Assembly: GCA_964503265.1 (NCBI GenBank)
Contig: CAZCYO010000001.1
Coordinates: 290,064 to 354,063, forward strand
DNA: 64,000 nucleotides
Direction: 5' to 3'
Source: an uncultured Gammaproteobacteria bacterium
GTDB lineage: Bacteria; Patescibacteriota; Microgenomatia; Levybacterales; UBA12049
The position numbers were made by a program, and so were the translations under genes. The notes under the pieces are model-generated. The model was given only the letters and a program-made list of their open reading frames with translations, did no database searches and was not told the origin of the DNA. Within the stretch, counting starts at the first letter, position 1. Each line of letters begins with the position of its first letter. Below, piece after piece: positions 7,793 through 21,975 of the stretch.

Positions 7793-9446
7793 GCACTGGT
7801 TTTGTTTGTAATTGAGAAAGATATTCGGGTTTTAATTCATAAATATCAGCAAATGGGAAATGTTTTACTAATGTATAGTCTTTATAGCCTGGCACTTTAC
7901 TGACTGCTTTAAATGTTAAATCGTTATTATCGTTCGTTCTCATGACAATCCATCGTGCCCATCTGTCAGGATTAACTGTCGCTGTTTCCCAGTATGCGCC
8001 AGTTCCTTCATGAATAAATTTAGCCATAGGAAGTCCACTGGAGAAAATAATGGCATCATGTGAAGCTGCTGAAATAAGTATAAATCCTGGTGTGTTTTTT
8101 GTGTGATCACTCAGCCAAGTCGCTACTTCAGAAACGTTTTTTTGACTAGATCCCACTCTCGCGTCGTCAATCGTTACTGCATCCTTATTAAGGAATGTAA
8201 ATATAGATACAAAAAGAATAAGGCCGATGAGAACATATCTAAATGTTTTAAGTTTATAAATAAGGAAGCCGACAAAAATAGCGATACTCGGAGCCATAAG
8301 GAGTCCATAGCGAACGTTAAACCATGTATCTCCTGAAATTCCCTGAACGAAAAGTACAGAAAATCCGAAATAAAGAGCGATTATATTAAATACGAGAGGC
8401 ACCATCAGTGCTGAACACACAACTCTAAGATTTGCTTCTACTTTCTTCTCAAACCACAAAGCAATCGAACCAAAGAATCCAAGCAACAGAATAAATGCAT
8501 TACTATTATATGCGAGAGCATACAAATACACTTTAATAGAAAGAAAAAGATCGTGTTCAGTTGCAAGTACACCTGCAGATGCAAGTTGTTGCTGTTGAGC
8601 GTGAGCTGAGAAAGGACCTAAGATAAAGTACAATGGATCTTTAAAAATTAATAAATTCCATAAAAACCACAGTGCGATTCCAACTCCTGCTAGAGTTGTA
8701 TAGAAAAACGCAGTGCCTTCTGCAACTCGAAATCCTCGTTTTTTAAAACTAAGAAAAAGAATAAGTGCACCTATATATAAAAAGAGGAACCATCCGTCGT
8801 ACCGAATCAGCGTTGAAAGCATAACCCAGAATGATGCTTTTAAAAGATTTAAGAGTGACTCATCTTTCTGCCAAAGAAATAATTCGTATACACTAGCTGT
8901 CATTGTAAAAATAAGTAACAATTCAGTCATCGCAGTGGACTGTAAATAAAGAACATTTATATTCGCAACAAAAATAAATACTCCAACAAGCCTTGATAAC
9001 ATATCTGCTCCAAGTCTTTTTAAGAATAGGTACACAAGCAGACCAGTGCCAACAAAAGAAAACATAGACTGAATTGCGCCTGATAATCCTGTGTGCCACA
9101 TAAAGTCATTCCAGATTGTTGGGACCATAAGTAAATGGGGAAGAGGTAGCCATACACTTCCAATTTGAGCAAGACCAGGTTTTAACCCTTCAACTACACG
9201 TCGTCCGATATCCAAATGAGATCTCGCATCGTTATATGAAAGACCTAAGTGGTTTTGAAGATAAATAACAAATGCACCTATTGAAATAAGAGAAAGAATA
9301 ATAGATAGAATAACTAGCATTCGCTTCTCTATCCAACTACTACAAACAGTTAAGAAACTGGTATTAAATTCGATACTATGCAGGGTAAATTTCATTTCTT
9401 CCTTTCTTTGGATACCATATTGTAGTAAGTCCAACGAGTAATACAA
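7776..9446 (-). CDS. Polytopic membrane protein, GT-C superfamily (PMT_2/ArnT-like) candidate glycosyltransferase
   Basis: 556 aa with more than 10 predicted TM helices. First-loop YNDARSHLDIGRR and WLPLPHLLM are reminiscent of the PMT_2 family. The true start is probably the internal M (MLVILSI...), which avoids the 71-nt overlap with the upstream gene. Confidence 0.35.
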   Translation of the reverse strand: MYYSLDLLQYGIQRKEEMKFTLHSIEFNTSFLTVCSSWIEKRMLVILSIILSLISIGAFVIYLQNHLGLSYNDARSHLDIGRRVVEGLKPGLAQIGSVWLPLPHLLMVPTIWNDFMWHTGLSGAIQSMFSFVGTGLLVYLFLKRLGADMLSRLVGVFIFVANINVLYLQSTAMTELLLIFTMTASVYELFLWQKDESLLNLLKASFWVMLSTLIRYDGWFLFLYIGALILFLSFKKRGFRVAEGTAFFYTTLAGVGIALWFLWNLLIFKDPLYFILGPFSAHAQQQQLASAGVLATEHDLFLSIKVYLYALAYNSNAFILLLGFFGSIALWFEKKVEANLRVVCSALMVPLVFNIIALYFGFSVLFVQGISGDTWFNVRYGLLMAPSIAIFVGFLIYKLKTFRYVLIGLILFVSIFTFLNKDAVTIDDARVGSSQKNVSEVATWLSDHTKNTPGFILISAASHDAIIFSSGLPMAKFIHEGTGAYWETATVNPDRWARWIVMRTNDNNDLTFKAVSKVPGYKDYTLVKHFPFADIYELKPEYLSQLQTKPVLGKQK

Positions 9447-10878
9447 TAAAAAGAACTAGTAAGTAATAGCTAATTCCTGGAATGCTTGTGTGAAGTACAT
9501 AGTTATAGATATAAGAATTAAGCTGGTCTTGCATGATCATTTTCCAATTTGCGAGATAATTTGATACAAGTCCTAGATTTCGTGCTTCAACAAATGGTGG
9601 AATAACATTAGTAGTAAGTGGTGCAAGTAATGATACTGCTGTACTATAGATAAAAACTACACTATAAAGAACTTTCATGAAAATATTAAGTGAGAAGCGT
9701 TGAAGGCCAATTCCTGCTAATATACACAATTCTGGTAAAACAGCAATCATATATCGAGAACCAAAAGCCCATCCACCATACGGATCTCCGAACATGGTAT
9801 AAAGAATTAAACAGGTAAGTGGTACAGCGACTAATCCTATCTCAACAAGCTTTCTTTTTTTATTAAGAATTCCGAGTCCGAGAACAGAAAGTAATACAAT
9901 AGGTGAGTAGACTAGTAGTCCACGATCATTACTAATTAAAAATGAATTAAAACCCTCGAGCATATTTCTTGTATTAAGAGCTTGTCCTGCATTTGCGTGT
10001 TTTTCAGCAACTGACAATGATTTAACTTTTAAATCTTTTACACGTGGAATTGAATTACTCAGCGTCGTCGCTTTACCGAAATTAACATAGTTATAATAAC
10101 CATATCCACACATGAGTGCGACAAACAGAAGTGGAGTAAACACATATGCCCAGTTTATAGAAAGTCTAATTCGTTTTTTTATCGTTTCCCACTGAATTCC
10201 CTGGAATGTAAGTAATACTGCGATTGGCATGAAGATAAATAAATTTGGAAAGTCGACGAATACGCCGGCTGCATAGCATAACCATACGAGGAGACCTTTT
10301 TGAACTGCATGTTTATTCTCCCAAAATAGTGTTAGATAGAGTGCCGAAAGAATAAAAAAAGAAGAAATTAAATGAGCATACAGAGTAACTGAATAACCCC
10401 ATGCATTTGTCGCAAATCCGAATGCTAACGCGCTAAATAGAGATGTTGACCAATGTAAATCTAATTTTTGTGTAAACTTAGCAATTAATAGTACTGTAAA
10501 TAATGCAAAAAGCGTAGAAACAGAGAAGGTAAACAACTGACTCATACCGAGTAATGATCCGAGCAAATAAAACGGAATCGCTAATAACGATGCTCCTATT
10601 GGGAAAAATGAAAAATAATGACCATTAATCTTCCCTATATCAGGTGTTCCCATTGATGCATAATGATCGATATTCACGGTGCGATAATCTACAACCGAAA
10701 GAATGAGTGCCCATCGTGAACGTTCTTGCGATGTTTCAAATGGTTTGCCACTTTTATTAAGCTGATATTCAATTTGTTTCGGAGTTGGATTACCCACGTT
10801 TCCTCGAAGTGTAAGACTGTAGAGAATGAGAGCAATAATCGTCAAAATAATATAAATATATTTATTCATATAACCCAT
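9376..10878 (-). CDS. Polytopic membrane protein, GT-C superfamily (PMT_2/ArnT-like) candidate glycosyltransferase
   Basis: 500 aa, multi-TM. First periplasmic loop with DHYASMG...FFPIGASLLAIPFYLLG in an ArnT/PMT-like arrangement, and a long C-terminal TM bundle. Confidence 0.4.
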   Translation of the reverse strand: MGYMNKYIYIILTIIALILYSLTLRGNVGNPTPKQIEYQLNKSGKPFETSQERSRWALILSVVDYRTVNIDHYASMGTPDIGKINGHYFSFFPIGASLLAIPFYLLGSLLGMSQLFTFSVSTLFALFTVLLIAKFTQKLDLHWSTSLFSALAFGFATNAWGYSVTLYAHLISSFFILSALYLTLFWENKHAVQKGLLVWLCYAAGVFVDFPNLFIFMPIAVLLTFQGIQWETIKKRIRLSINWAYVFTPLLFVALMCGYGYYNYVNFGKATTLSNSIPRVKDLKVKSLSVAEKHANAGQALNTRNMLEGFNSFLISNDRGLLVYSPIVLLSVLGLGILNKKRKLVEIGLVAVPLTCLILYTMFGDPYGGWAFGSRYMIAVLPELCILAGIGLQRFSLNIFMKVLYSVVFIYSTAVSLLAPLTTNVIPPFVEARNLGLVSNYLANWKMIMQDQLNSYIYNYVLHTSIPGISYYLLVLFIVLLVGLTTIWYPKKGRNEIYPA

Positions 10879-10890: not shown

Positions 10891-12744
10891 TTAGTTCAAT
10901 TTTACTAGTGTTTTCTTGTTTTTGCTATTTATTTTATTTCTATAGAGATCAGATAATAAAATTTTAATTGAAAAAGATACTGACTCTTTTACTATTAATG
11001 ACTTCATGAATAAATGCTCATAGTATGCTCCTATTGGAGATACTAATGTAGCGAATTCTGAGAGTGTTGTACTTCCTTCGATAGAAATTCGATTAATTTT
11101 ATATGGAAATCCATTTTTACTAACTGAACCTCCATTTACAGTAAATGCATGAGAAAAACCTGCTTTTTTAACAAAAGAAATAATTTTTTTTGAATACAGT
11201 CCGCGTGGATAAGCAAAATAGGTAATTTTCTGTCCAAGTTGTTTTTCTAAGTTATTTTTACTTGAAATGATTTCCTTTTCAAGTTCTCGATTTGAGGCTA
11301 AACGCATGTCACTGTGGGTTGCTGTGTGATATCCAATAGTTATATTATTATTAATAAGTTCTTTCATTTCTACTATAGAAACCATAGGTAAATCATTATC
11401 AAGTTGCTGTCTATTTGCATTAGTTGCATCACCTAGGACAAAAAGCGTTGCTGGCATTTTATATTTTTTTAAAATAGAGAATGCATCTGTATAAAAATTT
11501 TTATATCCGTCATCAAAAGTAAGAGCAATTGTATTTTTTTGTTTTGGATTGCTCGTGATTTCATCTAATGAAACAATATTTTTTGTCTTTTTTAGATAAC
11601 GTAATTGTTTTTCAAAATGTGTTGTTTGAATTGAAAATCTCCAAGTACTTTTTCCGACAGAGTGATAACAAAGAATTATAGGAGAGGAAGATATTATATT
11701 ACTTTTATTAAGTATGCCAAGAATTCTCAAACCTACTGCATGAATTCTCTCCACAACACTTATATGAGGAAGTAAATAATCTCTAACATCAGGAAGATAT
11801 CTTGTTAGATAATTTTCACCTGCTATATAGAATTTGTCGTCTTTTGAAGAAATAGCCATGATTTGAAGAGCATAAAAAATGCTTAATCCTATAAATTTTT
11901 TCTTATTTTTAATACCTGGAAGTAACTCATTAAGTAATGTATAAAACTCTTTACCTACGACAGGAAGATATGCCTTAGCGAGAATAGCAAGATCTGTCTC
12001 TTCATCTGCTAATACTGTTACTTCAGTGTCGATTAAATATATATTTTTTCCTGATGTAATAATATTTTCTGAATGAAGATCTCGATGTGCAATTACTAAA
12101 CTCCTTTTAGGTTGATGTACAAAAAGATACATGTTATAAAACGGCAAAATATATGATAAATATTTTTTAACTAAATGTGGTTGTCGAAGAATAAGCCGTA
12201 AAATACTTATATGAAATGAAACAAAAACATGAATCTTAGTTCTCATTGGTAATTGCATTTCCTTTACTTGCTTATTAGTAGATAACGCTCGAAGTTCTAA
12301 AATACATTTTTTCATTATGGAAACCTTATCTTGATTACTATGGCGCGCAATAGTATTGCCCATAAGGTAACTTGTAACAAATGCAGTGATTCCTTTATTT
12401 TCAATGATTCCAATTGGACTAGAAAATGAAAGCACGCTATTTTTATTGTTTTTTGTAATTGCGGAAAGTTTTTTTAAAATGTCATACTCTTTATAAAGTT
12501 GTTTATATGCTGAATTTTTAATTGAGTATCTAACATATTTAATAAATACGGATTCACCTTTTTTATTACTATATATCCCTGTTCCAGCCAAATTATCACT
12601 ATTTTGTTCTTTTATAACGTGCTTTAATTGATATCCTTTAAATGTTGGTACAGACTGAGCAATTTTATTATTAAAAATTTTATCGCTTAAATTAGATAGT
12701 ACCTCTAATAGATTGGAGGTGATAGAAGAAAATATGTTTGTCAT
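10891..12744 (-). CDS. Fusion protein: N-terminal protein-kinase-like/APH-like domain + C-terminal polysaccharide deacetylase (NodB) domain
   Basis: 617 aa. Catalytic-loop-like VIAHRDLHSENII followed by LIDTE (kinase-like fold). C-terminal ALTFDDGYKNFY...ATLFVLGD...GYHTATHSDM is a NodB homology domain with TFDDG and His motifs. Confidence 0.6.
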   Translation of the reverse strand: MTNIFSSITSNLLEVLSNLSDKIFNNKIAQSVPTFKGYQLKHVIKEQNSDNLAGTGIYSNKKGESVFIKYVRYSIKNSAYKQLYKEYDILKKLSAITKNNKNSVLSFSSPIGIIENKGITAFVTSYLMGNTIARHSNQDKVSIMKKCILELRALSTNKQVKEMQLPMRTKIHVFVSFHISILRLILRQPHLVKKYLSYILPFYNMYLFVHQPKRSLVIAHRDLHSENIITSGKNIYLIDTEVTVLADEETDLAILAKAYLPVVGKEFYTLLNELLPGIKNKKKFIGLSIFYALQIMAISSKDDKFYIAGENYLTRYLPDVRDYLLPHISVVERIHAVGLRILGILNKSNIISSSPIILCYHSVGKSTWRFSIQTTHFEKQLRYLKKTKNIVSLDEITSNPKQKNTIALTFDDGYKNFYTDAFSILKKYKMPATLFVLGDATNANRQQLDNDLPMVSIVEMKELINNNITIGYHTATHSDMRLASNRELEKEIISSKNNLEKQLGQKITYFAYPRGLYSKKIISFVKKAGFSHAFTVNGGSVSKNGFPYKINRISIEGSTTLSEFATLVSPIGAYYEHLFMKSLIVKESVSFSIKILLSDLYRNKINSKNKKTLVKLN

Positions 12745-12745: not shown

Positions 12746-13633
12746 TTATTTAGTTGTCACTGCTGTATGCCAAGAAAGTTTATAATTTGTGGTAATAATT
12801 CGATATAACGGTTTACACAAAAAATTAATTGCTACAATTGTTGTTGTTTCTATGGGAAGGGTAATAAAGGAATGAGCAATAGCAGCAATATAAAAAGTAA
12901 CTGGTCTACTATATTCTTTTTCTACGAGTTCACCAAAATATTTATTTACATTTAAATCAACAGCAGTTGGATTAGATCGAAATAGTTGTTTCAGATAATC
13001 AGACAACTTTGTAGGCAATTTATAATAAACTATCGCGTTTCTGACATGCTTAAAAAGCAGACCTCTTTGAATACATGAGAAATAGATAAAGTCATCATCA
13101 TTAATAATATTTGGAATATGAATTGATTTAGCAAATGCAGTATTAACTAACACACATCCACCATTACACCCGAAGATGTTATTTCCTTGTTTAATCTTTT
13201 TTCGCGATTCATCAAATACTAAAAAAGTACTATATACTGCTCTTTGAAAAAATGAAATTGGTTTAATAGGACGAACATTTCCACCTATTACTGTATATTT
13301 ACCAACATATTTTATAAGGTTAGTAACTACGTTGTTACTTCCAAGTGTTATATCAGCATCGAGGAAAACTATGTTCTCACCAGTTGCATCTTTTATAATC
13401 TTATTGAGACCAAAACATTTTCCTTTTTGCTTTTTACCTTCAATAATAATTATTTTTTTATTACGAATTCTCTTAATTTCAGAAATTGTATTATCTACAC
13501 ACCCATCACAATAAATAACTATTTGTGATAGTGTCCATGATGTTTGTGATTGTTTTAATAGATCAGACAAAAGAGAATAAATATTCTTCCCTTCATTGTG
13601 GGCTGCAATGCCGATAGTTACTGTTTGTTTCAT
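12746..13633 (-). CDS. Glycosyltransferase family 2 (GT-A fold)
   Basis: 295 aa. N-terminal TIGIAAHNEG, IVIYCDGCVDNT, and an LDADI DxD motif. Confidence 0.7.
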   Translation of the reverse strand: MKQTVTIGIAAHNEGKNIYSLLSDLLKQSQTSWTLSQIVIYCDGCVDNTISEIKRIRNKKIIIIEGKKQKGKCFGLNKIIKDATGENIVFLDADITLGSNNVVTNLIKYVGKYTVIGGNVRPIKPISFFQRAVYSTFLVFDESRKKIKQGNNIFGCNGGCVLVNTAFAKSIHIPNIINDDDFIYFSCIQRGLLFKHVRNAIVYYKLPTKLSDYLKQLFRSNPTAVDLNVNKYFGELVEKEYSRPVTFYIAAIAHSFITLPIETTTIVAINFLCKPLYRIITTNYKLSWHTAVTTK

Positions 13634-13635
13634 AC

Positions 13636-14898
13636 TTATCGTGAAAATTGGATAAATGGAGTGTTTGTGCGTGAATACTTTACTGAAAAAGGCATATATG
13701 GAATAGTAATTTTTTTGAACTTTTTCTCTTGCTTTGTAATATCTTTTTTCATGATAAGAGCCATTGCATCTTGTACAGTAGTTGAAATGTACTGCATTTC
13801 TTTTTTAGTCATACCTGCATATAGCGGGAAACGAAGAAGTCTACTACTAGCGCTCTCTGTTACTTCTAAGTCAGATTTTTTATATCCTAGTTTTCGTCCC
13901 TGAGGAGCTGAATGAAGGGGAATATAATGGAAACTTGCAGCTACACCGTGAGAACGGCAGTAATCCATAACTTTATTTCGATCATCAGTATTATTAAATA
14001 ACACGAAGAAAATATGTCCGTTTCCACTAGCGAATTTTGGAAGTGATGGAATAGTAACTAATCCTTTTTTTGCAAAAGGCACCATGAGATTCTTATAAAA
14101 CGAGAAAATGGAAAGTCTCATTTTTGTTATCTCATCAACTTTCTCAAGTTGTGCATAGAGATATGCTGCTAGTAGATCTGATGGAAGATAACTAGATCCG
14201 ATATTTACCCATGTATATTTATCGACAACCCCACGAATGAAGTTGGTTCTGTTCGTTCCTTTTTCACGAATGATTTCTGCATCTTCAATGATCTTTTTAT
14301 TATTTCGATTAATAAGAAGTGCTCCACCCTCACCACAGGTAATATTTTTTGTATCATGGAATGAAAGACACCCGAAGTCGCCTATTGTTCCTAAATATTT
14401 CCCTTTATATTTAGATTCAATTGCTTGTGCTGCATCTTCAATCACAAATAATTTGTGTTTCTTCGCTAACTCCATAATAGGATCCATATCACATGCAACA
14501 CCAGCATAATGAACTACGATAATCGCTTTTGTTTTCTTCGTAATTTTTCGTCGGATATCTTCAGGATCGATATTTAATGTATCGGGTGTTACTTCAGAGA
14601 ACACTACTTTCAGTCCTTCTGAGAGTAAAATAGCATTAACGGTTGATGAAAATGTAAACGATGGAACGATGACTTCATCACCTGGTTTTAAATCACAGAG
14701 TCTTACTGCAAATTCAAGTGCCGTAGTACACGATGTTGTTAAAAAAACCTTTTCAACGTTGTATCGTTTTTCTAAGAATTCATGAACGAGTTTTGTATAT
14801 TTCCCATCTCCAGCTCCATCCATATTATTATCAATAATATCTTTAATATATGTAAGTTCTTTTCCAGTATGATAAGGTTTTGAGAATCGAATATTCAT
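13636..14898 (-). CDS. DegT/DnrJ/EryC1/StrS-family PLP-dependent sugar aminotransferase
   Basis: 420 aa. VIVPSFTFSSTVNAILL, DAAQA, and LSFHDTKNITCGEGGALL (PLP-lysine region), all characteristic of the DegT family. Confidence 0.85.
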   Translation of the reverse strand: MNIRFSKPYHTGKELTYIKDIIDNNMDGAGDGKYTKLVHEFLEKRYNVEKVFLTTSCTTALEFAVRLCDLKPGDEVIVPSFTFSSTVNAILLSEGLKVVFSEVTPDTLNIDPEDIRRKITKKTKAIIVVHYAGVACDMDPIMELAKKHKLFVIEDAAQAIESKYKGKYLGTIGDFGCLSFHDTKNITCGEGGALLINRNNKKIIEDAEIIREKGTNRTNFIRGVVDKYTWVNIGSSYLPSDLLAAYLYAQLEKVDEITKMRLSIFSFYKNLMVPFAKKGLVTIPSLPKFASGNGHIFFVLFNNTDDRNKVMDYCRSHGVAASFHYIPLHSAPQGRKLGYKKSDLEVTESASSRLLRFPLYAGMTKKEMQYISTTVQDAMALIMKKDITKQEKKFKKITIPYMPFSVKYSRTNTPFIQFSR

Positions 14899-14899
14899 G

Positions 14900-16006
14900 T
14901 TATTTTTGCTCCTTTTCTAAAATTTCTTTAAAGAATGTAATAAAGTCTTTTGCAACACTATCCCATGTGTATTGTTTTGCAAATTCTCGAGCATGTTGAC
15001 CAAGTGACTTAGCAACCACTGGATTTGCTGCTTTTACCATAAGTTTTGCGTATTCAGTTACGTTATATGGTTTTGCCTTTAATACACTTTTTGGATCTGT
15101 CCATGCTAATCCAGGGATCGTAAACCCAACCATGCCATTTCCAGATGCTAATGCTTCTAGTGAGAAAAGAGAAAATCCTTCATGTCGTGAAGGGAAAGTG
15201 ACAAATAATGCTTTACTGAGTACTTTTGCTTTTACATCTCCATATGTCGGCCCAATGAGTCTTACACTATCCGTTAATGAAAGTTTAGAAATTAATGTAG
15301 TAATTTTTTCTTTATCAGGACCATTTCCAGCGATTACTAATGGATAATTAATTTTGTTCTTAATTTGTTTATATGCCTGTAATAGTAAATCGATACCTTT
15401 TTGTCCCATATCTAATCGTCCTAGGTATAAAATATATTCAGGGGTACTTTTTTTAATGGTAAAGAATTCTTCTCCAACACCTTGAGGAACGATTTTTGCT
15501 GTAACAGTTTTATTTACCTTTTTCATCTTCTTTAGATTATCGATAGTAAAAGGAAGGAAATATTTATAAAATCGTAGTCCAAATTTTTCAATTCGATCTG
15601 TAGGTAAGTGATACAATGTCGCGAAACGCTCTGCTTCAAATGAGGTAGGGAGACCAACGACAGGGATTTTCGTGAATAATGGTGAGAAGAGGGTCGAAAT
15701 TGGAGCTGTAAAACACTCAACAATAATATCTCCTTGTAGTCGTAAAACGGCAAACGGAAGTGCAAGGATATAGGCAATATTATTAATTCTAATATTCGTT
15801 GTGCCAAGTCCTATATGTCGATAATTCATCCCATTTTCTTTACGGTCTTTATATCCCGGATATCTACTTGAGATAACATCGACTTTATGTCCTATTTTTG
15901 CAATTCGTTTTCCTACCTCAAGTGTAGCCCGAGCTTGTCCTGCCGCAAGAAGCGGATTTTTTATGTCATCAAAATCTAAAAATGTGATATGTAATTTCTT
16001 ATTCAT
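14900..16006 (-). CDS. Glycosyltransferase family 4 (GT-B)
   Basis: 368 aa. C-terminal PSRHEGFSLFSLEALASGNGMVG matches the GT4 E-x7-E region. Confidence 0.8.
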   Translation of the reverse strand: MNKKLHITFLDFDDIKNPLLAAGQARATLEVGKRIAKIGHKVDVISSRYPGYKDRKENGMNYRHIGLGTTNIRINNIAYILALPFAVLRLQGDIIVECFTAPISTLFSPLFTKIPVVGLPTSFEAERFATLYHLPTDRIEKFGLRFYKYFLPFTIDNLKKMKKVNKTVTAKIVPQGVGEEFFTIKKSTPEYILYLGRLDMGQKGIDLLLQAYKQIKNKINYPLVIAGNGPDKEKITTLISKLSLTDSVRLIGPTYGDVKAKVLSKALFVTFPSRHEGFSLFSLEALASGNGMVGFTIPGLAWTDPKSVLKAKPYNVTEYAKLMVKAANPVVAKSLGQHAREFAKQYTWDSVAKDFITFFKEILEKEQK

Positions 16007-16008
16007 AG

Positions 16009-19000
16009 TTATTTACTCGCAAGTGAAATAGCGCCTGTACTATTTGTGATTGTTTTGTCAATAATAAGTCGGTAGAACATATCTGCACTTGTTCCCCAAT
16101 TGAAATTTTGTGACCAGAAATACGCATTTTCAGATAATTGATTTCTGTATGCTTTATTTTTAATAACTTTCGTTAGCGCTACTTCAAGTTCAGAAATATC
16201 TCGAACTTTAACCAGTATTCCTGTTTCGTTATGAATGACTGAATCTTTAAGCCCACTGACGTTTGATGCAATAACAGGTGTGCCAGCAGCGTTCGCTTCA
16301 ATAACTGTAATACCCCAACCTTCAGCCATTGATGGCTGTACAACAACCCAACTTGTAGCAAGTAGTGTTGCTTTATTTTTTTCGGTTACTTTTCCATAAA
16401 ATGTGATTGCTGTTGTAAGACCTAATTTTTTAGTTAGTTTCATAAGTTTTTTCTTACTTTCTCCCTCTCCTATAATCGAGAACGTTGATTCTGGGAATTT
16501 AGCATGTATTTTTTGAAAAGCTTTAATGGCAACATCAATATTTTTATATGGCTTTAATCGTCCAATATATGTAATAGTTGGGTTTTTCGTTTTTTTCTTT
16601 CGAGTAAAAGTTGCATGATTAATTCCGTTATGGACGACTTGAATATCAGATGCTTTAGTAATTCCTAGTTTTGTTAATGCAGATTTTGAAGATTCAGAAA
16701 CTGTAATAACAGATTGGTTTCGATAAACGAATGGCATCACTGTTCCTTCTAAGAATCGAGCAATTGTAGAGAGAGGGAACATCAGATGTTCTCGGAACAC
16801 TTCCTGATGCACATGATGAACAAGGAGAAACGTCTTTTTACTCGTATAAAGAGGAGTAAAGAATGGAATTCCATTTTCACAATCAATGATAACGTCATAT
16901 TTGCCACGGAATTTTAAGACATAGTAAAGAAACGCCCACAGGTAAACCAGATACGCTCCACCTCTTCGAATAACTTCTACTCCATCAACCGTTTGTGTGC
17001 GTGAACTATGACCATCGTTTCCACAAAATAGTGTCACAGCGACATCATTTTTTACCCATCTTTTTGCAAGTTCTTGAATATATGTTTCAGCTCCGCCAGA
17101 CCATTTATGATGGGTATCTCTCCAATTAAAAATAAGAATGTGCGTTTTTCCTGATTCTGGTTGAATAGTAGATGTTCTTATAAATAATCCGAAAAAATCC
17201 GCAATAGCTCGTTCTATGTTTCTTACAAAATCAATATTAAGATGGAGAAGAATTGCTATAAAAAGATTAAGTCCTCCAACTACATACATTGCGAATACTA
17301 GAGAAAATACCGAAGAGTGATTAATGTAAACTAATCCGAATTGTAATAATGTCAGAAGAAAGCCTAGCGCCGAAAACATGTAAACTTTTTTTACAAGATA
17401 ATATGATGTATAAACTCTTGAGATAGTGAAACAGAACATAGCAAAAGCATAAAAGAGAATAAATGGAATAATAGCTTGAGATTTAGAACCTAATAAAAAT
17501 GGTAATGTAAATGGTGCTAAGACTCCAAAAAATAGAAAGCCAGCAAAAGCAAGAAGGATTGTTCCGAGAAGGATAAGTTGAAATGTTTTCTTTGGATTTG
17601 TATTTGCACCCTCATGACGACTTACGAGTGGTGTCACAAATTGTGTCGCTAAATTCCCTAAGAAATATATCATTTTTCCAGCTAACGCGAGCAGTGAGTA
17701 AATACCTGCATCAGTTTTAGTTAAAAAATGATTCGCGAGAATAATATCAAGACTTAAGAAGCTCATTGTGGAAAGTCCTGAAATTGCTGATGCAGTAAAA
17801 AATCGTCTTGAAATGTATGATATTTCTCTTTTTGTGGCTGTATGTTTTTTTGTTTCTTGATTACGCTTCACATAAATCCAAGCTATAAAGAACGAGCCGA
17901 CAGTCGAAAAAGGAATTGCAATATATGCATATTGTGAAAGATTGAAAGTAACTGCAGCAATAGCAATTGCAAGTTTAAGTATTGGTTCACTAATTGTAAC
18001 GATTGCCAAGGCGCTAAATAATAGCTTTCCTGATAAATATCCTGTATCAACGGCCGTAATGAATGAAGCAATAATATATGGAGCAAAGAGTAAGAAGGGA
18101 AGGATACTAGACGTGTGAAAATAATTACTTAAGAAAATAGATGAGGCACTCCATAATCCGGCAGTTACTAATCCTGCAATTAATGTCTTTTGTCGAAATT
18201 CTTTCCAAAAAGAAAAAGCAGCAGAGATGCCATATTTTCCGGCAAGAAATCCACTTCGATATTTCACAGTTGAACTTAATGCTGAAACAGGGATATTAAC
18301 GATATACAGAAAACTTCCGACTAAACTTACTTCTGCAAAATATTGGATATCAATGACACGTCCTAAATAAGCATTAAAAATGAAGTTAAGGATGTTACTA
18401 AATACGGCTGCTGCTATTAGTGCACCACCACTGACGTATGCGATTTTTATACGGCCAAATAATTCAGCAATTCTCGATGGTTTGGCAGGAACAAAAGGTG
18501 TTTCAACTTCCTCAACCACTTCTTCTTCAGTATCAGCTTTTTTCAAATGAAGTCCGTGAACTGTTTTTTCCCAATAGTGAGGTTTAAAAATGAGCTGTTG
18601 GAGTGCCATAAGCCCAGCGACACTGATGAGTAACCAGTAAAGTGGAATAAAAAACACATATTTTACGAGTTCGTAGTGTCCTCGTTTAATACAACCGATC
18701 ATATAATAATAAAGAAACAGGAAGTTACCAACGATAAGTGAGAACGCAGCCATATAAAAGATATATGAAGGATACAGTGATTCAATGGTCGGACCGACGA
18801 TTGCATAGAGTGTAAAGTACGAAATAGTAGCAAGCCAAAGTAATGGATTAATGAGAATAAAGGCAATTTTCCCACCAATAGTGAGATGGAAAAATAAATT
18901 ATGAATTTTCTGGTTTTTTATATCTTTGATAATTTCTCTGTTATGGACGAGGTAGGTTTGCATATATCCTTTGATCCATCGTGAACGCTGACGAATCCAG

Positions 19001-20685
19001 TTTTTAACTTTACTATTTGCTTCCTCAAGAGTTGTCGAATCGATAATGGCAGTTTTATATCCAGCTTTAAACAGTCTCATACCTAAATCTGCATCTTCAG
19101 TCACATTAAACGGATCCCAGCCTTGAAGTGTTAATAAATCTTTGGTTCTAAAATGATTACTTGTTCCACCAAGTGGGATTGTCGTCTGGAGAGATTGAAG
19201 ACCTGTTAACGTCACGTCAAACCACAGTGAATATTCAGCAGTAAAGAATCGAGTTAACAAATTTTGATTTGGATTAAAGTAATTTAATTTAGCTTGTAGA
19301 CATAACACATCGTTTGGCGCTGATTGGAATGCTAGGTATGCTTTTTTAAGCTGCAGTGGATCTGGAATATCTTCAGCATCATAAATGACGAGGTATTCAC
19401 CAGTTGCGAGTGATAATCCATAATTACATGCTTTCGGTTTGGTCTTAGGGAAAGAATGTGGTACGACGACGACTTTTACGTATGCAGGAAGAGACATTTT
19501 CTTAACAGCTGCGATTGACCCTGTATCGTCTTCCTCTAAAAGAAGCATCACTTCGAGCTTATCTTTCGGCCAATCAAGCAGACTAATTGATTGTAAAAAT
19601 TGTGGAATAATATGTGACTCTTTATAGAGTGGACAAAGAATAGTATAGACAGGAAGTCGTCGTTCATTTAATGCAGCGAGTGCTAGTTGAGAAACGGTTA
19701 TTTCCTGAGGAAACTGGAGACTTTTTAGTACGATAAAAAGATTGAATAGTACGTCAGTAAAGTAGAGTGTACTCAAAAATGCGATAAGAACACCAAGTGT
19801 TACAAATGGGAAGAACGCGAGACCTGCAATAAGAGCCGCGAGTATCGAGAAAATGAAGAGCTTTTGTCGAAGTTCAAAGGTAATAATCGCTGATTTATGA
19901 TAGGGAAGTGTCGTATGTGTAATATATTTCGTTTTCTTATATCCAAGTCCTGCATTACGCATAGAAAGTGAATCAGCTGATGCTAAATGTTGTGGCTTGA
20001 TGCGTTTTGTGCGAAGAGAAAGTGCATTGAGACCTATCTCAAAGATAGATTTAAAATTAACATTAGATGTACCATTTTCACGTTCATGAAATGTAATGTC
20101 ATGATTTTCAATTCGAAACCCTGATTGTGCAGCACGGTGTAAAAATTCTAAATCAAACGTCCATCCAGTTTTAGGGAGAACTGAAATTGTATCAATTACT
20201 TCTTTTGTAAATACTTTTAGTCCTGATTGGATATCCACATGGAGGTTGAAGAGAAAACGACCAAAGATCTTTCTAAACCCAGTTGTTTTAATTTTTCTGG
20301 TGAATCCTGCTTTATATTCTTTTCGGTTTGCGACGATAATATCAGCTGAATCAAGCTTATCTACCATAGCGATGATTTCCTCTGGAGGATACTGGAGATC
20401 TGCATCTATCATCACGATTGCATCACCTTTGGCATAAGAAAATCCTTCAACAAGTGAGAAGGCTTTGCCTTTTTTGCCTAATTTTCTTTCTACGCGTACA
20501 TTAGATAGGGATAACTCTTGAATGTATTCATACGTTCCATCCGGAGATGTGTCATCCACACAGATAATCTCATAAGAATATTTAGAATTACGAAAAGTAG
20601 CAGAAATACGAGACAGAAGTTCTTTGATATTCTTTTTCTCATTATAGACTGGAATGATGATGCTTACGAGTTGTTTTTTATACAT
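16009..20685 (-). CDS. 1558-aa multidomain glycan-assembly mega-protein: GT2 (Dpm1/polyprenyl-phosphate-sugar-synthase-like) + GT2 (processive, QxxRW) + MOP/Wzx-like polytopic transporter region + GT4
   Basis: Four regions by amino-acid position. aa 5-230: IIPVYNEKKNI, CVDDTSPDGT, DADLQYP. aa 340-600: ILCPLYKE, YDAEDIPD, QRSRW. aa 740-1190: about 12 TM helices, flippase-like. aa 1195-1558: PSMAEGWGITVIEANAAGTPVIAS, a GT4 domain. Roughly nt 20673-19996, 19668-18888, 18468-17118 and 17103-16009. Confidence 0.75.
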   Translation of the reverse strand: MYKKQLVSIIIPVYNEKKNIKELLSRISATFRNSKYSYEIICVDDTSPDGTYEYIQELSLSNVRVERKLGKKGKAFSLVEGFSYAKGDAIVMIDADLQYPPEEIIAMVDKLDSADIIVANRKEYKAGFTRKIKTTGFRKIFGRFLFNLHVDIQSGLKVFTKEVIDTISVLPKTGWTFDLEFLHRAAQSGFRIENHDITFHERENGTSNVNFKSIFEIGLNALSLRTKRIKPQHLASADSLSMRNAGLGYKKTKYITHTTLPYHKSAIITFELRQKLFIFSILAALIAGLAFFPFVTLGVLIAFLSTLYFTDVLFNLFIVLKSLQFPQEITVSQLALAALNERRLPVYTILCPLYKESHIIPQFLQSISLLDWPKDKLEVMLLLEEDDTGSIAAVKKMSLPAYVKVVVVPHSFPKTKPKACNYGLSLATGEYLVIYDAEDIPDPLQLKKAYLAFQSAPNDVLCLQAKLNYFNPNQNLLTRFFTAEYSLWFDVTLTGLQSLQTTIPLGGTSNHFRTKDLLTLQGWDPFNVTEDADLGMRLFKAGYKTAIIDSTTLEEANSKVKNWIRQRSRWIKGYMQTYLVHNREIIKDIKNQKIHNLFFHLTIGGKIAFILINPLLWLATISYFTLYAIVGPTIESLYPSYIFYMAAFSLIVGNFLFLYYYMIGCIKRGHYELVKYVFFIPLYWLLISVAGLMALQQLIFKPHYWEKTVHGLHLKKADTEEEVVEEVETPFVPAKPSRIAELFGRIKIAYVSGGALIAAAVFSNILNFIFNAYLGRVIDIQYFAEVSLVGSFLYIVNIPVSALSSTVKYRSGFLAGKYGISAAFSFWKEFRQKTLIAGLVTAGLWSASSIFLSNYFHTSSILPFLLFAPYIIASFITAVDTGYLSGKLLFSALAIVTISEPILKLAIAIAAVTFNLSQYAYIAIPFSTVGSFFIAWIYVKRNQETKKHTATKREISYISRRFFTASAISGLSTMSFLSLDIILANHFLTKTDAGIYSLLALAGKMIYFLGNLATQFVTPLVSRHEGANTNPKKTFQLILLGTILLAFAGFLFFGVLAPFTLPFLLGSKSQAIIPFILFYAFAMFCFTISRVYTSYYLVKKVYMFSALGFLLTLLQFGLVYINHSSVFSLVFAMYVVGGLNLFIAILLHLNIDFVRNIERAIADFFGLFIRTSTIQPESGKTHILIFNWRDTHHKWSGGAETYIQELAKRWVKNDVAVTLFCGNDGHSSRTQTVDGVEVIRRGGAYLVYLWAFLYYVLKFRGKYDVIIDCENGIPFFTPLYTSKKTFLLVHHVHQEVFREHLMFPLSTIARFLEGTVMPFVYRNQSVITVSESSKSALTKLGITKASDIQVVHNGINHATFTRKKKTKNPTITYIGRLKPYKNIDVAIKAFQKIHAKFPESTFSIIGEGESKKKLMKLTKKLGLTTAITFYGKVTEKNKATLLATSWVVVQPSMAEGWGITVIEANAAGTPVIASNVSGLKDSVIHNETGILVKVRDISELEVALTKVIKNKAYRNQLSENAYFWSQNFNWGTSADMFYRLIIDKTITNSTGAISLASK

Positions 20686-20889: not shown

Positions 20890-20963
20890 TGACCCCAATG
20901 GGATTCGAACCCATGATTTCCGGGATGAAAGCCCGGCGTCCAAGGCCGCTAGACGATGGGGCC
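20890..20963 (-). tRNA. tRNA-Glu (anticodon UUC)
   Basis: Reverse complement GGCCCCATCGTCTAGCGGCCTTGGACGCCGGGCTTTCATCCCGGAAATCATGGGTTCGAATCCCATTGGGGTCA. Cloverleaf folds with anticodon loop CTTTCAT and a GGTTCGAATCC T-arm. Confidence 0.85.
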
Positions 20964-21903: not shown

Positions 21904-21975
21904 GGGCCGGTAGCTCAGTGGTAGAGCAGGAGCCTTTTAAGCTCTTGGTCGCGGGTTCGACCCCCGCCCGGCTCA
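21904..21975 (+). tRNA. tRNA-Lys (anticodon UUU)
   Basis: GGGCCGGTAGCTCAGTGGTAGAGCAGGAGCCTTTTAAGCTCTTGGTCGCGGGTTCGACCCCCGCCCGGCTCA. Anticodon loop CTTTTAA with a canonical D and T arm. Confidence 0.85.

What the first reader, a model, noticed from the sequence alone, without database searches (positions are those of the whole stretch)
16009..20685. 1558-aa four-module glycan assembly mega-protein (Dpm1-like GT2 + processive GT2 + Wzx/MOP-like transporter + GT4)
A single uninterrupted ORF combines four things. The first is a polyprenyl-phosphate-sugar-synthase-like GT2 with DxD motifs DDT and DAD. The second is a QRSRW-containing processive GT2 with flanking TM helices. The third is an about 450-aa 12-TM flippase-like block. 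The fourth is a canonical GT4 with an EGWG..E motif. Such a donor-synthase, polymerase, exporter and decorating-GT assembly line in one polypeptide is highly unusual. It suggests a self-contained system for making and exporting a lipid-linked or surface glycan.
Basis: seen in the sequence. Interest (0 to 1): 0.7.

Follow-up and report, generated by a model that had tools for sequence, protein, structure and literature searches.

The report
Four-module glycan synthase–flippase fusion protein
This is a real, conserved 1558-residue membrane protein of Microgenomates (candidate phyla radiation) bacteria that joins three sugar-transferring enzymes and a lipid-sugar flippase in one chain, and it heads a ten-gene operon that probably builds an uncharacterised cell-surface glycan.

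Summary
The ORF at 16009..20685 (-) is intact, and an independent assembly encodes the identical protein. More than 120 full-length relatives (49-80% identity) exist in Levy-, Woese-, Gottesman- and Amesbacteria and related groups.

All four modules are confirmed:
- A DPMS/GtrB/ArnC-type polyprenyl-phosphate sugar synthase (GT2a).
- A BcsA/HAS/NfrB-like membrane GT2 with DxD, TED and QRSRW motifs (GT2b).
- A GT4 with an EX7E motif.

It is neither self-contained nor unique.
- It is the first gene of an operon that also encodes two more GTs, an aminotransferase, a deacetylase fusion, two paralogous GT-C-like membrane proteins, a GH5-like hydrolase, a Ser-rich sortase substrate and a sortase.
- The same modules occur split or fused in many other combinations.
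- GT2b is 47-54% identical to MshEN (c-di-GMP)-GT2 proteins of Clostridia, Actinomycetota and Chloroflexota. Those are likewise linked to a GtrB-like GT2 and the same GT-C protein.

Best model: a synthase-made glycan that is decorated or extended outside the cell from lipid-linked sugars. The product is unknown. Verdict: a new variant of known kinds, of moderate interest.

The parts
19996..20685 (-). Module 1 (aa 1-230), GT2a: a GT-A glycosyltransferase of the polyprenyl-phosphate sugar synthase type (DPMS/GtrB/ArnC-like). Motifs VDDT (aa 43) and DADLQ (aa 94).
   Evidence: Pfam PF00535, E 1.7e-41. PDB matches: Pyrococcus Dol-P-Man synthase 5mlz 1e-27, GtrB 5ekp 2e-22, ArnC 9hwj 3e-19. NCBIfam hits below cut-off to PgfS, ArnC and AglJ. 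D44, D45, D94, D96 and Q98 are invariant in 35 orthologues.
19711..19995 (-). aa 231-325: a conserved juxtamembrane segment (SMxGAGxGYKKKKYITHTTLPH) followed by a two-helix transmembrane hairpin (about aa 277-320). The hairpin sits where GtrB has its C-terminal TM pair and where NfrB/HAS-type synthases have their N-terminal TM pair.
   Evidence: Hydropathy. AlphaFold2 helices at aa 272-291 and 293-324. Invariant M242, G246, T256 and H257. The NfrB alignment starts in this hairpin.
18916..19710 (-). Module 2 catalytic domain (aa 326-590), GT2b: a cellulose-synthase-like GT-A with EEDD, KTKPKACN, YDAED (DxD), VTEDAD (TED) and QRSRW.
18544..18915 (-). Module 2 membrane part (aa 591-714): three or four TM/interface helices, then the invariant cytoplasmic motif PHYWEKTVHG.
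   Evidence: Hydropathy. AlphaFold2 helices at aa 585-637, 640-668 and 671-700. 360-369 residues align with BcsA/HAS, including their membrane helices. The WxKTxH motif is shared with NfrB and with the Actinomycetota homologue.
18445..18543 (-). Variable acidic/basic linker (aa 715-747).
   Evidence: Mean pairwise identity 0.18 and length 27-111 aa among orthologues. pLDDT 27-43.
17182..18444 (-). Module 3 (aa 748-1168): a 12-helix MOP-superfamily (Wzx/PST-like) transporter.
17128..17181 (-). Short variable linker (aa 1169-1186).
   Evidence: Identity 0.30, length 16-51 aa. pLDDT 44-58.
16012..17127 (-). Module 4 (aa 1187-1558): a GT4 retaining GT-B glycosyltransferase with EX7E (E1455...E1463).
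   Evidence: Pfam PF13439 plus PF00534, E 1.8e-44. PDB relatives: MshA, BshA, PimA, TarM, GlgA. EX7E kept in 35 of 35 orthologues.
14900..16006 (-). Downstream operon gene: a stand-alone GT4 (368 aa). It starts 3 nt after the stop of the mega-ORF.
   Evidence: A homologue is present in 31 of 40 related CPR-type loci.
13636..14898 (-). DegT/DnrJ/EryC1 sugar aminotransferase (420 aa). This gene belongs to the variable part of the locus.
   Evidence: Pfam PF01041, 1.3e-85. A homologue is present in only 4 of 40 related loci.
12746..13633 (-). Stand-alone GT2 (295 aa).
   Evidence: Pfam PF00535, 4.9e-17. A homologue is present in 26 of 40 loci.
10891..12744 (-). Fusion of a kinase-like (APH/choline-kinase-like, weak) domain and a polysaccharide deacetylase (617 aa).
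   Evidence: Pfam PF01522, 4.4e-29, plus weak PF01636 and PF01633. It is fused to the Mem500 homologue in L031.
9376..10878 (-). Mem500: a polytopic membrane protein, probably GT-C fold, and a paralogue of Mem556. Its presence tracks the GT4 module.
   Evidence: 2 of 14 family members hit PMT_2, best 4.9e-5. hhalign against the Mem556 family: probability 93.6%, E 2e-7. Present in 29 of 30 loci that have the GT4 module, in 2 of 9 CPR-type loci without it, and in 0 of 18 loci from other phyla.
7776..9446 (-). Mem556: a polytopic membrane protein, probably a GT-C (PMT_2/ArnT-like) glycosyltransferase. Its N-terminal loop motif YNDAxSHLNIARR contains an invariant Asp. It is the conserved partner of GT2b across phyla.
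   Evidence: 7 of 15 family members hit PMT_2, best 2.6e-8. Present in 36 of 40 CPR-type loci and 13 of 31 loci of other phyla. Fused to GT2b in Chloroflexota loci L054-L057, and to GT2a plus GH5 in L063.
6785..7792 (-). n335: a membrane-anchored glycoside-hydrolase-like (clan GH-A / GH5-like) protein.
   Evidence: N-terminal TM helix. Weak PF11790 hit, 4e-3. Homologous regions fused to Mem556-like proteins score as PF00150 Cellulase in L049 and L063. Present in 27 of 40 loci.
6118..6726 (-). n202: a secreted protein with a signal peptide, a Ser/Gly/Asn-rich stalk, an LASTG sorting motif, a TM helix and a basic tail. Likely a sortase substrate and a candidate glycan acceptor.
   Evidence: Read directly from the translation. 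Conserved next to the sortase in 14 of 40 loci.
5587..6105 (-). Sortase (172 aa), the last gene of the operon.
   Evidence: Pfam PF04203, 3e-20.

Best explanation
Shown: the ORF encodes a genuine, conserved four-module inner-membrane enzyme of a Microgenomates (Levybacteria-like) CPR bacterium. It is the first gene of a 10-gene surface-glycan operon.

Inferred mechanism:
- The N-terminal GT2a transfers a sugar from a nucleotide sugar to polyprenyl phosphate on the cytoplasmic face, as DPMS, GtrB and ArnC do.
- GT2b is a BcsA/HAS/NfrB-type membrane-embedded GT2. It makes a beta-linked glycan backbone and probably threads it through its own membrane helices.
- The MOP module flips lipid-linked sugar to the outer face. 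The cargo is either the polyprenyl-P-sugar from GT2a or a short lipid-linked oligosaccharide extended by the GT4 module and the accessory GT2/GT4 enzymes.
- Outside the cell, the two GT-C-like paralogues encoded downstream use these lipid-linked donors. Mem556 is paired with GT2b and Mem500 is paired with the GT4 module. They branch or extend the emerging polymer and/or glycosylate the Ser-rich sortase-anchored protein.
- The GH5-like protein trims or releases the polymer.

The fusion therefore joins a synthase-type route and a GtrB-flippase-GT-C-type route in one polypeptide. In Clostridia, Actinomycetota and Chloroflexota the same core (GT2b, GtrB-like GT2, Mem556-type GT-C, with or without GH5) is under c-di-GMP control through N-terminal MshEN domains. 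In this lineage GT2a occupies that N-terminal position.
For: Reality and conservation. All four modules are 77-87% identical to the closest relative. Catalytic motifs are kept in 35 of 35 orthologues, and only the linkers are variable.

Module identities.

Operon: neighbouring genes are separated by at most 60 nt or overlap, and their families were assigned.

Functional coupling from fusion and adjacency:
- GT2a is fused to GT2b in CPR-type loci. It lies next to MshEN-GT2b in Clostridium drakei, Sporolactobacillus and Paenibacillus (L081, L076, L072).
- GT2b is fused to a Mem556-like domain in Chloroflexota (L054-L057).
- GT2a is fused to Mem556 and GH5 in L063.
- MOP-GT4 and other MOP fusions are common.

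Co-occurrence: Mem556 in 36 of 40 and Mem500 in 32 of 40 CPR-type loci. Mem500 tracks the GT4 module, 29 of 30 against 2 of 9 and 0 of 18.

GT-C assignment: PMT_2 hits in 7 of 15 and 2 of 14 family members. The two families are homologous.

Precedents:
- GacI (GtrB-type), GacK (Wzx family) and GacL (GT-C) act through GlcNAc-P-undecaprenol (bioRxiv 10.1101/180810).
- NfrB is a c-di-GMP/MshEN-controlled processive GT2 with DxD, TED and QxxRW (PMC8669469). It aligns end to end with GT2b.
Against: - No biochemical data exist. No sugar, lipid carrier, linkage or acceptor is identified.
- Synthase-type GT2s normally export their own product, so the need for a flippase in the same chain is unexplained.
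- The GT-C assignment of Mem500 and Mem556 rests on sub-threshold or partial Pfam hits in relatives. The window's own proteins give no hit, and profile searches against PDB sequences found nothing relevant.
- Five related loci have GT2a+GT2b+GT4 with no MOP within 10 kb, so the flippase is dispensable or is encoded elsewhere.
- Membrane-crossing parity after GT2b is inferred, not shown. Three clear helices are seen, but an even number is needed.
- Co-occurrence counts are not corrected for phylogeny. ORFs in the related loci were called by a simple script.
Confidence: 0.5

Rival explanations
1. Linear lipid-linked assembly line, similar to archaeal Agl pathways or Wzx-dependent pathways. GT2a primes polyprenyl phosphate with the first sugar, as AglJ does. 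GT2b then acts as a non-processive membrane GT like PcManGT, and together with the GT4 module and the accessory GT2/GT4 enzymes it elongates this lipid-linked glycan in the cytoplasm. The MOP module flips the finished unit. The GT-C paralogues act as oligosaccharyl-transferase or polymerase onto the Ser-rich sortase substrate or the cell wall.
For: - No initiating phosphoglycosyltransferase (PF00953/PF02397) is found among the operon genes. A monophosphate primer made by GT2a would fill that gap.
- NCBIfam similarity of GT2a to AglJ and of the GT4 to Agl16, both below cut-off.
- PcManGT is the top structural match of GT2b.
- A Ser-rich LASTG protein and a sortase lie in the operon.
- The accessory GT and sugar-modifying genes vary between relatives, as they do in O-antigen loci.
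Against: - The minimal GT2a + GT2b + GT-C sets in Firmicutes, Chloroflexota and some CPR-type loci have no MOP and no GT4 within 10 kb. In those sets GT2b must export its own product.
- The MshEN/c-di-GMP control of close GT2b homologues is typical of processive exopolysaccharide synthases.
- GT2b keeps the full TED and QxxRW signature and 360-369 residues that superpose on BcsA/HAS, including their membrane helices.
- GT2b-GT-C fusions suggest that the GT-C acts on a product emerging from GT2b.
Confidence: 0.3
2. Lipoglycan pathway similar to lipomannan/lipoarabinomannan. The GT4 module (PimA-like) glycosylates a membrane lipid in the cytoplasm. The MOP module flips the glycolipid. The GT-C paralogues extend it outside using polyprenyl-P-sugar from GT2a. 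GT2b makes a separate polymer or the glycolipid headgroup.
For: - The GT4 module matches PimA and PimB' among solved structures, 1e-13 and 5e-10.
- GT2a is a homologue of Ppm1/DPMS.
- Two GT-C-like proteins lie in the operon, and Mem500 co-varies with the GT4 module.
Against: - The GT4 matches are generic: MshA, BshA, GlgA and TarM score as well or better.
- The model gives GT2b no role, although GT2b is the most conserved module.
- No lipid-anchor genes are seen in the operon.
- CPR bacteria are generally thought to lack de novo lipid synthesis (my own knowledge, not tested here).
Confidence: 0.1
3. Artefact. The long ORF results from an assembly chimera or from sequencing errors that fuse separate neighbouring genes.
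For: Some relatives carry the same modules as two or three adjacent ORFs, for example L011, L013, L019, L027 and L036. A split state therefore exists in nature or in draft assemblies.
Against: - The identical 1558-aa protein is found on an independently assembled contig.
- At least 120 clusters of full-length relatives come from many samples and sources, including contigs of 0.3-1 Mb.
- All modules are in frame, with conserved order and with linkers that vary in length but not in frame.
Confidence: 0.01
4. The MOP block is not a glycan flippase. It is the cell's MurJ-type lipid II flippase or a MATE-type drug/ion exporter, fused here by chance.
Against: - Orthologous blocks hit the PST/Wzx families PF01943 and PF13440, and no other transporter family appeared in that scan.
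- Across 534 representative clusters, this MOP subfamily is repeatedly fused to GT4, GT2, acetyltransferase or kinase-like domains.
- It always lies inside glycan loci.
Confidence: 0.03

Closest known systems
Polyprenyl-phosphate glycosyltransferases: Pyrococcus Dol-P-Man synthase (PDB 5mlz), GtrB (5ekp), ArnC (9hwj); functionally GacI, CsbB and Ppm1
   Same: Module 1 has the same GT-A catalytic domain with the DADLQ metal site (E 1e-27 to 3e-19). As in GtrB, it is followed by a juxtamembrane segment and a two-helix membrane hairpin.
   Different: It is not a separate protein. It sits at the N-terminus of a synthase-like GT2 and shares the hairpin with it. All NCBIfam equivalog scores are far below cut-off, so the sugar specificity is unknown.
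Membrane-integrated processive GT2 synthases: BcsA, hyaluronan synthase and E. coli NfrB; also the non-processive PcManGT (6yv7)
   Different: It is only 18-21% identical to these enzymes. It carries no PilZ or MshEN c-di-GMP domain. Its close relatives (47-54% identity) are uncharacterised MshEN-GT2 proteins of Clostridia, Actinomycetota and Chloroflexota, which carry only generic names in the databases. Processivity is not shown.
MOP-superfamily lipid-linked glycan flippases: WzxE (9g95), GacK, AglR, MurJ
   Different: It is covalently fused between a synthase-like GT2 and a GT4. Its own sequence falls below the Pfam models, and profile searches against PDB sequences find nothing. Its substrate is unknown.
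Three-component extracytoplasmic glycosylation systems: GtrA/GtrB/GtrV, CsbB/GtcA/YfhO, GacI/GacJ/GacK/GacL, and Ppm1/Pmt protein O-mannosylation
   Same: The logic of the locus is the same. There is a GtrB-type synthase, a flippase, and GT-C-like membrane transferases encoded in the same operon. A Ser-rich secreted protein is a possible acceptor.
   Different: Here the synthase and the flippase are fused to two further GTs. The GT-C candidates form a divergent family (Pfam PMT_2 hits only in some members). The system is tied to a synthase-type GT2 rather than to an ABC-transporter-dependent or Wzy-dependent polymer.
Synthase-dependent exopolysaccharide systems with a dedicated glycoside hydrolase (Bcs with BcsZ, Nfr, Pga, Pel)
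   Same: A synthase-like GT2 occurs together with a GH5-like hydrolase in the locus. Close non-CPR homologues carry a c-di-GMP receptor domain.
   Different: There are no outer-membrane or periplasmic scaffold components and no co-polymerase. Instead there are a GtrB-like enzyme, a MOP flippase and GT-C proteins, which are hallmarks of lipid-carrier pathways.

Membership tests
GT2 polyprenyl-phosphate sugar synthases (DPMS/GtrB/ArnC type) | GT-A domain with a DxD metal site and significant similarity to solved members | tested here: met
   PF00535 1.7e-41. 5mlz 1e-27, 5ekp 2e-22, 9hwj 3e-19. DADLQ is invariant.
GT2 polyprenyl-phosphate sugar synthases (DPMS/GtrB/ArnC type) | Membrane anchoring by TM helices directly after the catalytic domain | tested here: met
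   Hairpin at about aa 277-320, from hydropathy and AlphaFold2 helices.
GT2 polyprenyl-phosphate sugar synthases (DPMS/GtrB/ArnC type) | Transfer of a single sugar to polyprenyl phosphate | not testable with these tools
   Needs a membrane assay with C55-P and labelled nucleotide sugars.
GT2 polyprenyl-phosphate sugar synthases (DPMS/GtrB/ArnC type) | Score above a curated equivalog cut-off (PgfS, ArnC, AglJ) | tested here: not met
   85, 72 and 64 bits against cut-offs of 500, 529 and 325. It belongs to the broad type, not to any named orthologue group.
Processive membrane-integrated GT2 synthases (BcsA/HAS/NfrB) | D, DxD, TED and Q(R/Q)xRW motifs | tested here: met
   EEDD 384, YDAED 435, VTEDAD 528, QRSRW 566. 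Kept in 35 of 35 orthologues.
Processive membrane-integrated GT2 synthases (BcsA/HAS/NfrB) | GT domain flanked by TM and interface helices with the synthase fold | tested here: met
Processive membrane-integrated GT2 synthases (BcsA/HAS/NfrB) | Polymer-conducting channel and processive elongation | not testable with these tools
The best structural match is a non-processive enzyme.
Processive membrane-integrated GT2 synthases (BcsA/HAS/NfrB) | c-di-GMP receptor domain (PilZ or MshEN) | tested here: not met
   No such Pfam hit in the 1558-aa protein. MshEN is present in non-CPR homologues of 47-54% identity.
MOP superfamily, PST/Wzx family flippases | 12-TM MOP fold with two six-helix lobes | tested here: met
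MOP superfamily, PST/Wzx family flippases | Match to the Pfam PST models (PF01943/PF13440/PF14667) | tested here: inconclusive
   The query block gives no hit at E<=1. Of 18 orthologous blocks, 5 hit PF01943 and 4 hit PF13440, with best E-values of 2.1e-7 and 3.3e-12.
MOP superfamily, PST/Wzx family flippases | Translocation of a polyprenyl-(pyro)phosphate-linked glycan | not testable with these tools
   Needs a flippase assay or genetics.
GT4 retaining GT-B glycosyltransferases | Two Rossmann-like domains (Glyco_transf_4 plus Glycos_transf_1) and an EX7E motif | tested here: met
   PF13439 aa 1197-1357 and PF00534 aa 1363-1522. EGWGITVIE at aa 1455, kept in 35 of 35 orthologues.
Wzx/Wzy-dependent pathway | Initiating phosphoglycosyltransferase (WecA/MraY-like or WbaP-like) in the locus | tested here: not met
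   No PF00953 or PF02397 hit in any of the 10 operon proteins or their flanks. It could be encoded elsewhere in the genome.
Wzx/Wzy-dependent pathway | Wzy polymerase and chain-length regulator | tested here: not met
   No Wzy_C or Wzz hits. Two GT-C-like paralogues are present instead.
GtrB-flippase-GT-C extracytoplasmic glycosylation | GT-C fold transferase encoded with the polyprenyl-P-sugar synthase | tested here: inconclusive
   Mem556 family: 7 of 15 members hit PMT_2, best 2.6e-8. Mem500 family: 2 of 14, best 4.9e-5. The window's own proteins give no hit.

The most novel reading that the evidence does not exclude
The four-module protein may be the hub of a previously undescribed hybrid glycan pathway. 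In it, a self-exporting synthase-type GT2 would be obligatorily coupled, in one polypeptide, to a polyprenyl-phosphate sugar synthase and a Wzx-type flippase. Dedicated GT-C enzymes would then build branches on the nascent polymer as it leaves the membrane.

The same ancient core (GT2b + GtrB-like GT2 + Mem556-type GT-C + GH5) may be an unrecognised c-di-GMP (MshEN)-controlled matrix or wall polysaccharide system. It is widespread in Clostridia, Actinomycetota, Chloroflexota and Patescibacteria. In Microgenomates it may supply the main wall glycopolymer.
Probability: 0.25. Interest if true: 0.7.

Novelty: new variant of a known kind. Interest (0 to 1): 0.5.

Why it matters
CPR/Patescibacteria are mostly uncultured, and their envelope glycans are essentially unknown. 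This locus is conserved across Microgenomates and encodes a complete-looking surface-glycan machine.

The fusions work as a Rosetta stone. They tie together four enzyme types that are normally assigned to different export routes (synthase-dependent, and lipid-carrier with flippase).

They also point to a partner relationship between an uncharacterised, very conserved GT2 family and a divergent GT-C family. That relationship is also present in cultivable, genetically tractable Clostridia and Paenibacillus, where the system appears to be under c-di-GMP control. The hypothesis can therefore be tested outside the CPR.

If the coupling is real, it would add a new mode of exopolysaccharide assembly. 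It would also assign a function to thousands of proteins now named only 'glycosyltransferase family 2 protein'.

Tried and rejected
- Pfam on the query's own MOP block gave nothing except a chance holin hit.
- Profile searches against PDB sequences found no hit for the MOP block or for Mem556. For Mem500 they gave only a chance hit to an alginate lyase.
- The AFDB50 fold library was not available, so no annotated AlphaFold relatives of GT2b were obtained.
- Literature searches for CPR/Microgenomates/Levybacteria with glycosyltransferase, flippase, fusion or sortase found nothing relevant. Searches for a GT2 + GT-C + c-di-GMP system in Gram-positives also found nothing specific. This is absence in the searched library, not proof of novelty.
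- The names of 120 Clostridial MshEN-GT2b homologues are all generic.
- The assembly-chimera idea was rejected.
- The MurJ or MATE reading of the MOP block was rejected as unlikely.
- The PF20706 'GT4 in conflict systems' hit was considered and judged to be an overlap of related GT4 models, not evidence of a defence role.
- The sigma-70 scan found no promoter between the ORF and the upstream tRNA. By eye, a TTGACT-17 nt-TATACA element lies about 50 nt upstream of the start codon, which is weak evidence.
- A structure of the whole protein was not attempted.


Full report
**Observation.** The window carries one uninterrupted ORF at 16009..20685 on the minus strand (1558 aa, ATG start). Pfam places the following:
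- a Glycos_transf_2 domain at aa 8-163 (E 1.7e-41);
- Glyco_tranf_2_3 and Glyco_trans_2_3 at aa 347-630 (E 2e-28 and 4e-22);
- a two-lobed GT4 at aa 1197-1522 (PF13439 1e-15, PF00534 1.8e-44).

The ORF is not an assembly artefact.
- An independent Logan assembly of run SRR12487046 encodes the identical protein.
- A protein search returned at least 120 clusters of full-length relatives. They are about 1540-1640 aa long, 49-80% identical and cover 98-100% of the query. Sources name them only 'glycosyltransferase' from Candidatus Levybacteria, Curtissbacteria or the Patescibacteria group.
- In an alignment of 35 orthologues the catalytic motifs are kept in all 35. Mean pairwise identity is 0.52 for GT2a, 0.73 for the GT2b catalytic domain, 0.40 for MOP and 0.54 for GT4. 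The two inter-module linkers are variable in sequence (0.18 and 0.30) and in length.

**Module 1 (aa 1-230, 'GT2a').** Its closest solved relatives are Pyrococcus dolichyl-phosphate mannose synthase (5mlz, 1e-27), GtrB (5ekp, 2e-22) and ArnC (9hwj, 3e-19). The DADLQ metal site aligns exactly. A conserved juxtamembrane segment and a two-helix hairpin (about aa 277-320) follow. This is the architecture of enzymes that load one sugar onto polyprenyl phosphate. All NCBIfam equivalog scores (PgfS, ArnC, AglJ) are far below cut-off, so the sugar is unknown.

**Module 2 (aa 326-714, 'GT2b').** It has the full D / DxD / TED / QxxRW signature of cellulose-synthase-like GT2s and is followed by membrane helices and an invariant PHYWEKTVHG motif.
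- An AlphaFold2 model has moderate confidence (pLDDT 72).
- It aligns end to end with the GT and TM region of E. coli NfrB at 21% identity, including the hairpin, TED, QxSRW and WxKTxH. NfrB is a c-di-GMP-activated processive exopolysaccharide synthase (PMC8669469).
- Whether GT2b is processive cannot be decided here.

**Module 3 (aa 748-1168).** This was the weakest part of the original claim, because the query's own sequence hits no Pfam transporter family. A profile of 18 orthologous blocks also finds no PDB sequence. The flippase reading is nevertheless supported.
- Of the 18 orthologous blocks, 5 hit Polysacc_synt (best 2.1e-7) and 4 hit Polysacc_synt_3 (best 3.3e-12).

**Module 4 (aa 1187-1558).** It is an ordinary retaining GT4 with EX7E. 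Its PDB relatives are generic: MshA, BshA, PimA, TarM, GlgA.

**Context in the window.** The mega-ORF is the first gene of a compact minus-strand operon (5587-20685). Gaps between genes are at most about 60 nt, or the genes overlap. In order, the genes are:
1. a GT4 (368 aa);
2. a DegT aminotransferase;
3. a GT2 (295 aa);
4. a kinase-like/polysaccharide-deacetylase fusion (617 aa);
5. a polytopic membrane protein of 500 aa ('Mem500');
6. a polytopic membrane protein of 556 aa ('Mem556');
7. a membrane-anchored GH-A/GH5-like protein (335 aa);
8. a secreted protein (202 aa) with a signal peptide, a Ser/Gly/Asn-rich stalk, an LASTG motif, a TM helix and a basic tail;
9. a sortase.

None of the operon proteins is an initiating phosphoglycosyltransferase. 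In the Mem556 family, 7 of 15 members hit Pfam PMT_2 (best 2.6e-8). In the Mem500 family, 2 of 14 do (best 4.9e-5). The two families are homologous (hhalign probability 93.6%). I read both as divergent GT-C-fold glycosyltransferases.

**Comparative genomics.** A scan of GTDB species representatives for the most conserved GT2b peptides found more than 594 loci, and I analysed the best 80. BLAST of the window's modules and neighbours against all ORFs of these loci shows four things.

(i) The locus is conserved in Woese-, Gottesman-, Ames-, Davies-, Roizman-, Levy- and Dojkabacteria. Among CPR-type loci with at least 8 kb downstream, Mem556 is present in 36 of 40, Mem500 in 32, the GH-like gene in 27, and the sortase pair in 12-14. 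The small GTs and sugar-modifying genes vary, as they do in O-antigen loci.

(ii) The fusion state varies. I found:
- all four modules in one chain;
- GT2a+GT2b+GT4 without MOP;
- GT2a+GT2b next to MOP+GT4;
- GT2b next to MOP+GT4;
- MOP+GT4+GT2;
- a deacetylase-Mem500 fusion.

A search of 1.84 billion representative proteins with the MOP profile found 534 clusters at E<=1e-30. Their lengths fall into classes of about 420-520 aa (stand-alone), 720-960 aa and 1530-1611 aa. Pfam confirms MOP-GT4, MOP-GT2, GT2-MOP, GT2b-MOP-GT4, MOP-GT4-GT2, MOP-GT4-acetyltransferase and MOP-kinase-like fusions. The four-module protein is the largest member of a fusion series. This is good evidence that the modules work in one pathway, and it means the single-chain state is not unique.

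(iii) GT2b is remarkably conserved outside the CPR. It shows 47-54% identity to proteins of Chloroflexota, Actinomycetota (Paraconexibacter, Nocardioides, Solirubrobacterales) and Bacillota.
- Those proteins carry N-terminal MshEN c-di-GMP-binding domains: 5.9e-30 in Paraconexibacter, and six repeats in a Dehalococcoidia protein.
- In Clostridium drakei, Sporolactobacillus and Paenibacillus foliorum the MshEN-GT2b gene lies next to a GtrB-like GT2. In C. drakei and P. foliorum a Mem556-like PMT_2 protein lies in the same locus.
- In four Chloroflexota loci GT2b is fused to a Mem556-like domain.
- In Candidatus Nephthysia, GT2a, Mem556 and a GH5 cellulase domain form one protein next to GT2b.
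- 120 Clostridial homologues carry only generic names, and I found no paper on this system.

(iv) Mem500 follows the GT4 module. It is present in 29 of 30 loci that have the module, in 2 of 9 CPR-type loci without it, and in 0 of 18 loci from other phyla. These counts are not corrected for phylogeny.

**Mechanism.** Shown: the four module identities, their conservation, the operon and the fusion and adjacency patterns. Everything below is inferred.

The pairwise fusions GT2a-GT2b, GT2b-GT-C and GT2a-GT-C-GH5 are most simply explained as follows. The GT-C protein takes its donor (polyprenyl-P-sugar) from GT2a. It takes its acceptor from GT2b, which would be a polymer emerging from a synthase-type GT2. 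This is the logic of GtrABV, CsbB/GtcA/YfhO and especially GacI/GacK/GacL, in which a Wzx-family protein is proposed to flip GlcNAc-P-undecaprenol for a GT-C enzyme (bioRxiv 10.1101/180810). Here that logic is applied to a synthase-dependent polymer, with a GH5-like enzyme as the usual hydrolase partner.

The CPR-specific additions would form a second lipid-linked branch delivered outside. These additions are MOP, the GT4 module, Mem500 and the accessory GTs. The Ser-rich sortase substrate is a possible acceptor. For the GT4 module to be cytoplasmic, the MOP N-terminus must be cytoplasmic too. This needs an even number of membrane crossings after GT2b, whereas hydropathy and the model show three clear helices. 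A hairpin at the invariant N613-P614 is assumed, consistent with the cytoplasmic MshEN domain that follows the same region in NfrB.

I give this model 0.5. The main rival (0.3) is a linear, Agl-like lipid-linked assembly line primed by GT2a on polyprenyl phosphate, with GT2b acting non-processively like PcManGT. A lipomannan-like lipoglycan route (0.1), a MurJ/MATE reading of the MOP block (0.03) and an artefact (0.01) are less likely.

**Comparison with what is known, and novelty.** Each module belongs to a known superfamily, and none reaches a curated orthologue threshold. I found no description of the four-module architecture or of the GT2b/GtrB-like/GT-C/GH5 core. This is absence in the searched library, not proof that it is undescribed. 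The proteins are already in public databases under generic names. I therefore rate it a new variant of known kinds.

Its interest is moderate (0.5). It is a conserved hub of CPR surface-glycan synthesis, and its fusions predict a testable coupling between a synthase-type GT2, a lipid-carrier branch and GT-C enzymes. That coupling is also present, apparently under c-di-GMP control, in cultivable Gram-positive bacteria.

**Caveats.**
- The alignments used for structure prediction contain only 17-18 fairly close orthologues.
- ORFs in related loci were called by a simple longest-ORF script, and N-termini may be over-extended.
- Some split states may be frameshift errors in draft MAGs.
- Many of the TPA_asm MAG contigs are labelled 'uncultured Gammaproteobacteria' or 'Bdellovibrionales', yet they carry the CPR-type locus. 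The thirteen I checked have 32-49% GC. The labels are probably wrong.

Noticed in passing
L053:9065-11326, L060:6934-10947, L076:9092-11413, L081:8415-13402, L072:13282-18502, L054:4256-7243: There is a widespread and apparently uncharacterised gene set in Clostridia, Paenibacillus, Actinomycetota and Chloroflexota. It combines a GT2 with N-terminal MshEN (c-di-GMP-binding) domains, 47-54% identical to module 2, with a GtrB-like GT2 and a PMT_2-like GT-C membrane protein. The GT-C protein is sometimes fused to GT2b or to a GH5 cellulase domain. All database names are generic.
   Followed up: partly
window 5587-6726 (-): A small secreted protein with a Ser/Gly/Asn-rich stalk and an LASTG-TM-KSK sorting signal sits directly upstream of a sortase at the 3' end of the glycan operon. 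The pair recurs in 12-14 of 40 related loci. It may be the glycan's protein acceptor or a wall-anchored adhesin.
   Followed up: partly
window 10891-12744 (-); L031:8324-11713: A 617-aa fusion joins a kinase-like region (weak APH/choline-kinase hits around aa 205-255) to a polysaccharide deacetylase. In most relatives only the deacetylase part (about 270 aa) is present. In L031 the whole protein is further fused to the Mem500 GT-C-like protein.
   Followed up: no
window 55885-58319 (+): A second membrane glycan-related gene pair lies elsewhere in the window: a 338-aa protein with a weak LPG_synthase_TM match, followed by a DUF2079 membrane protein (E 2e-66).
   Followed up: no
L004-L006, L009, L018, L022, L025-L027, L033-L036 and others: MAG contigs from 'TPA_asm' records are labelled uncultured Gammaproteobacteria, Bdellovibrionales, Pseudomonadales, Verrucomicrobiia or Sulfotelmatobacter. 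They nevertheless carry the Microgenomates-type locus (43-63% identity over the whole protein). The fifteen checked have 31-49% GC. The taxonomic labels look wrong.
   Followed up: partly
window 4221-5585 (+): A 454-aa protein with a weak MGDG_synth (GT28-like) match is encoded convergently right after the sortase. It is conserved at the same position in the closest relative (77% identity, L002).
   Followed up: no
window 19858-19995 (aa 231-276 of the ORF): A strongly conserved segment (SMxGAGxGYKKKKYITHTTLPH; M242, G246, T256 and H257 invariant) lies between GT2a and the TM hairpin. AlphaFold2 models it with low confidence (pLDDT about 44) and it has no assigned function. It may be the lipid-phosphate-binding juxtamembrane element.
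   Followed up: no
window 20890-20963 (-) and 21904-21975 (+): Two tRNA genes flank the 220-aa MscS-like gene immediately upstream of the operon. The closest relative (L002) has the same MscS-like gene upstream.
   Followed up: no
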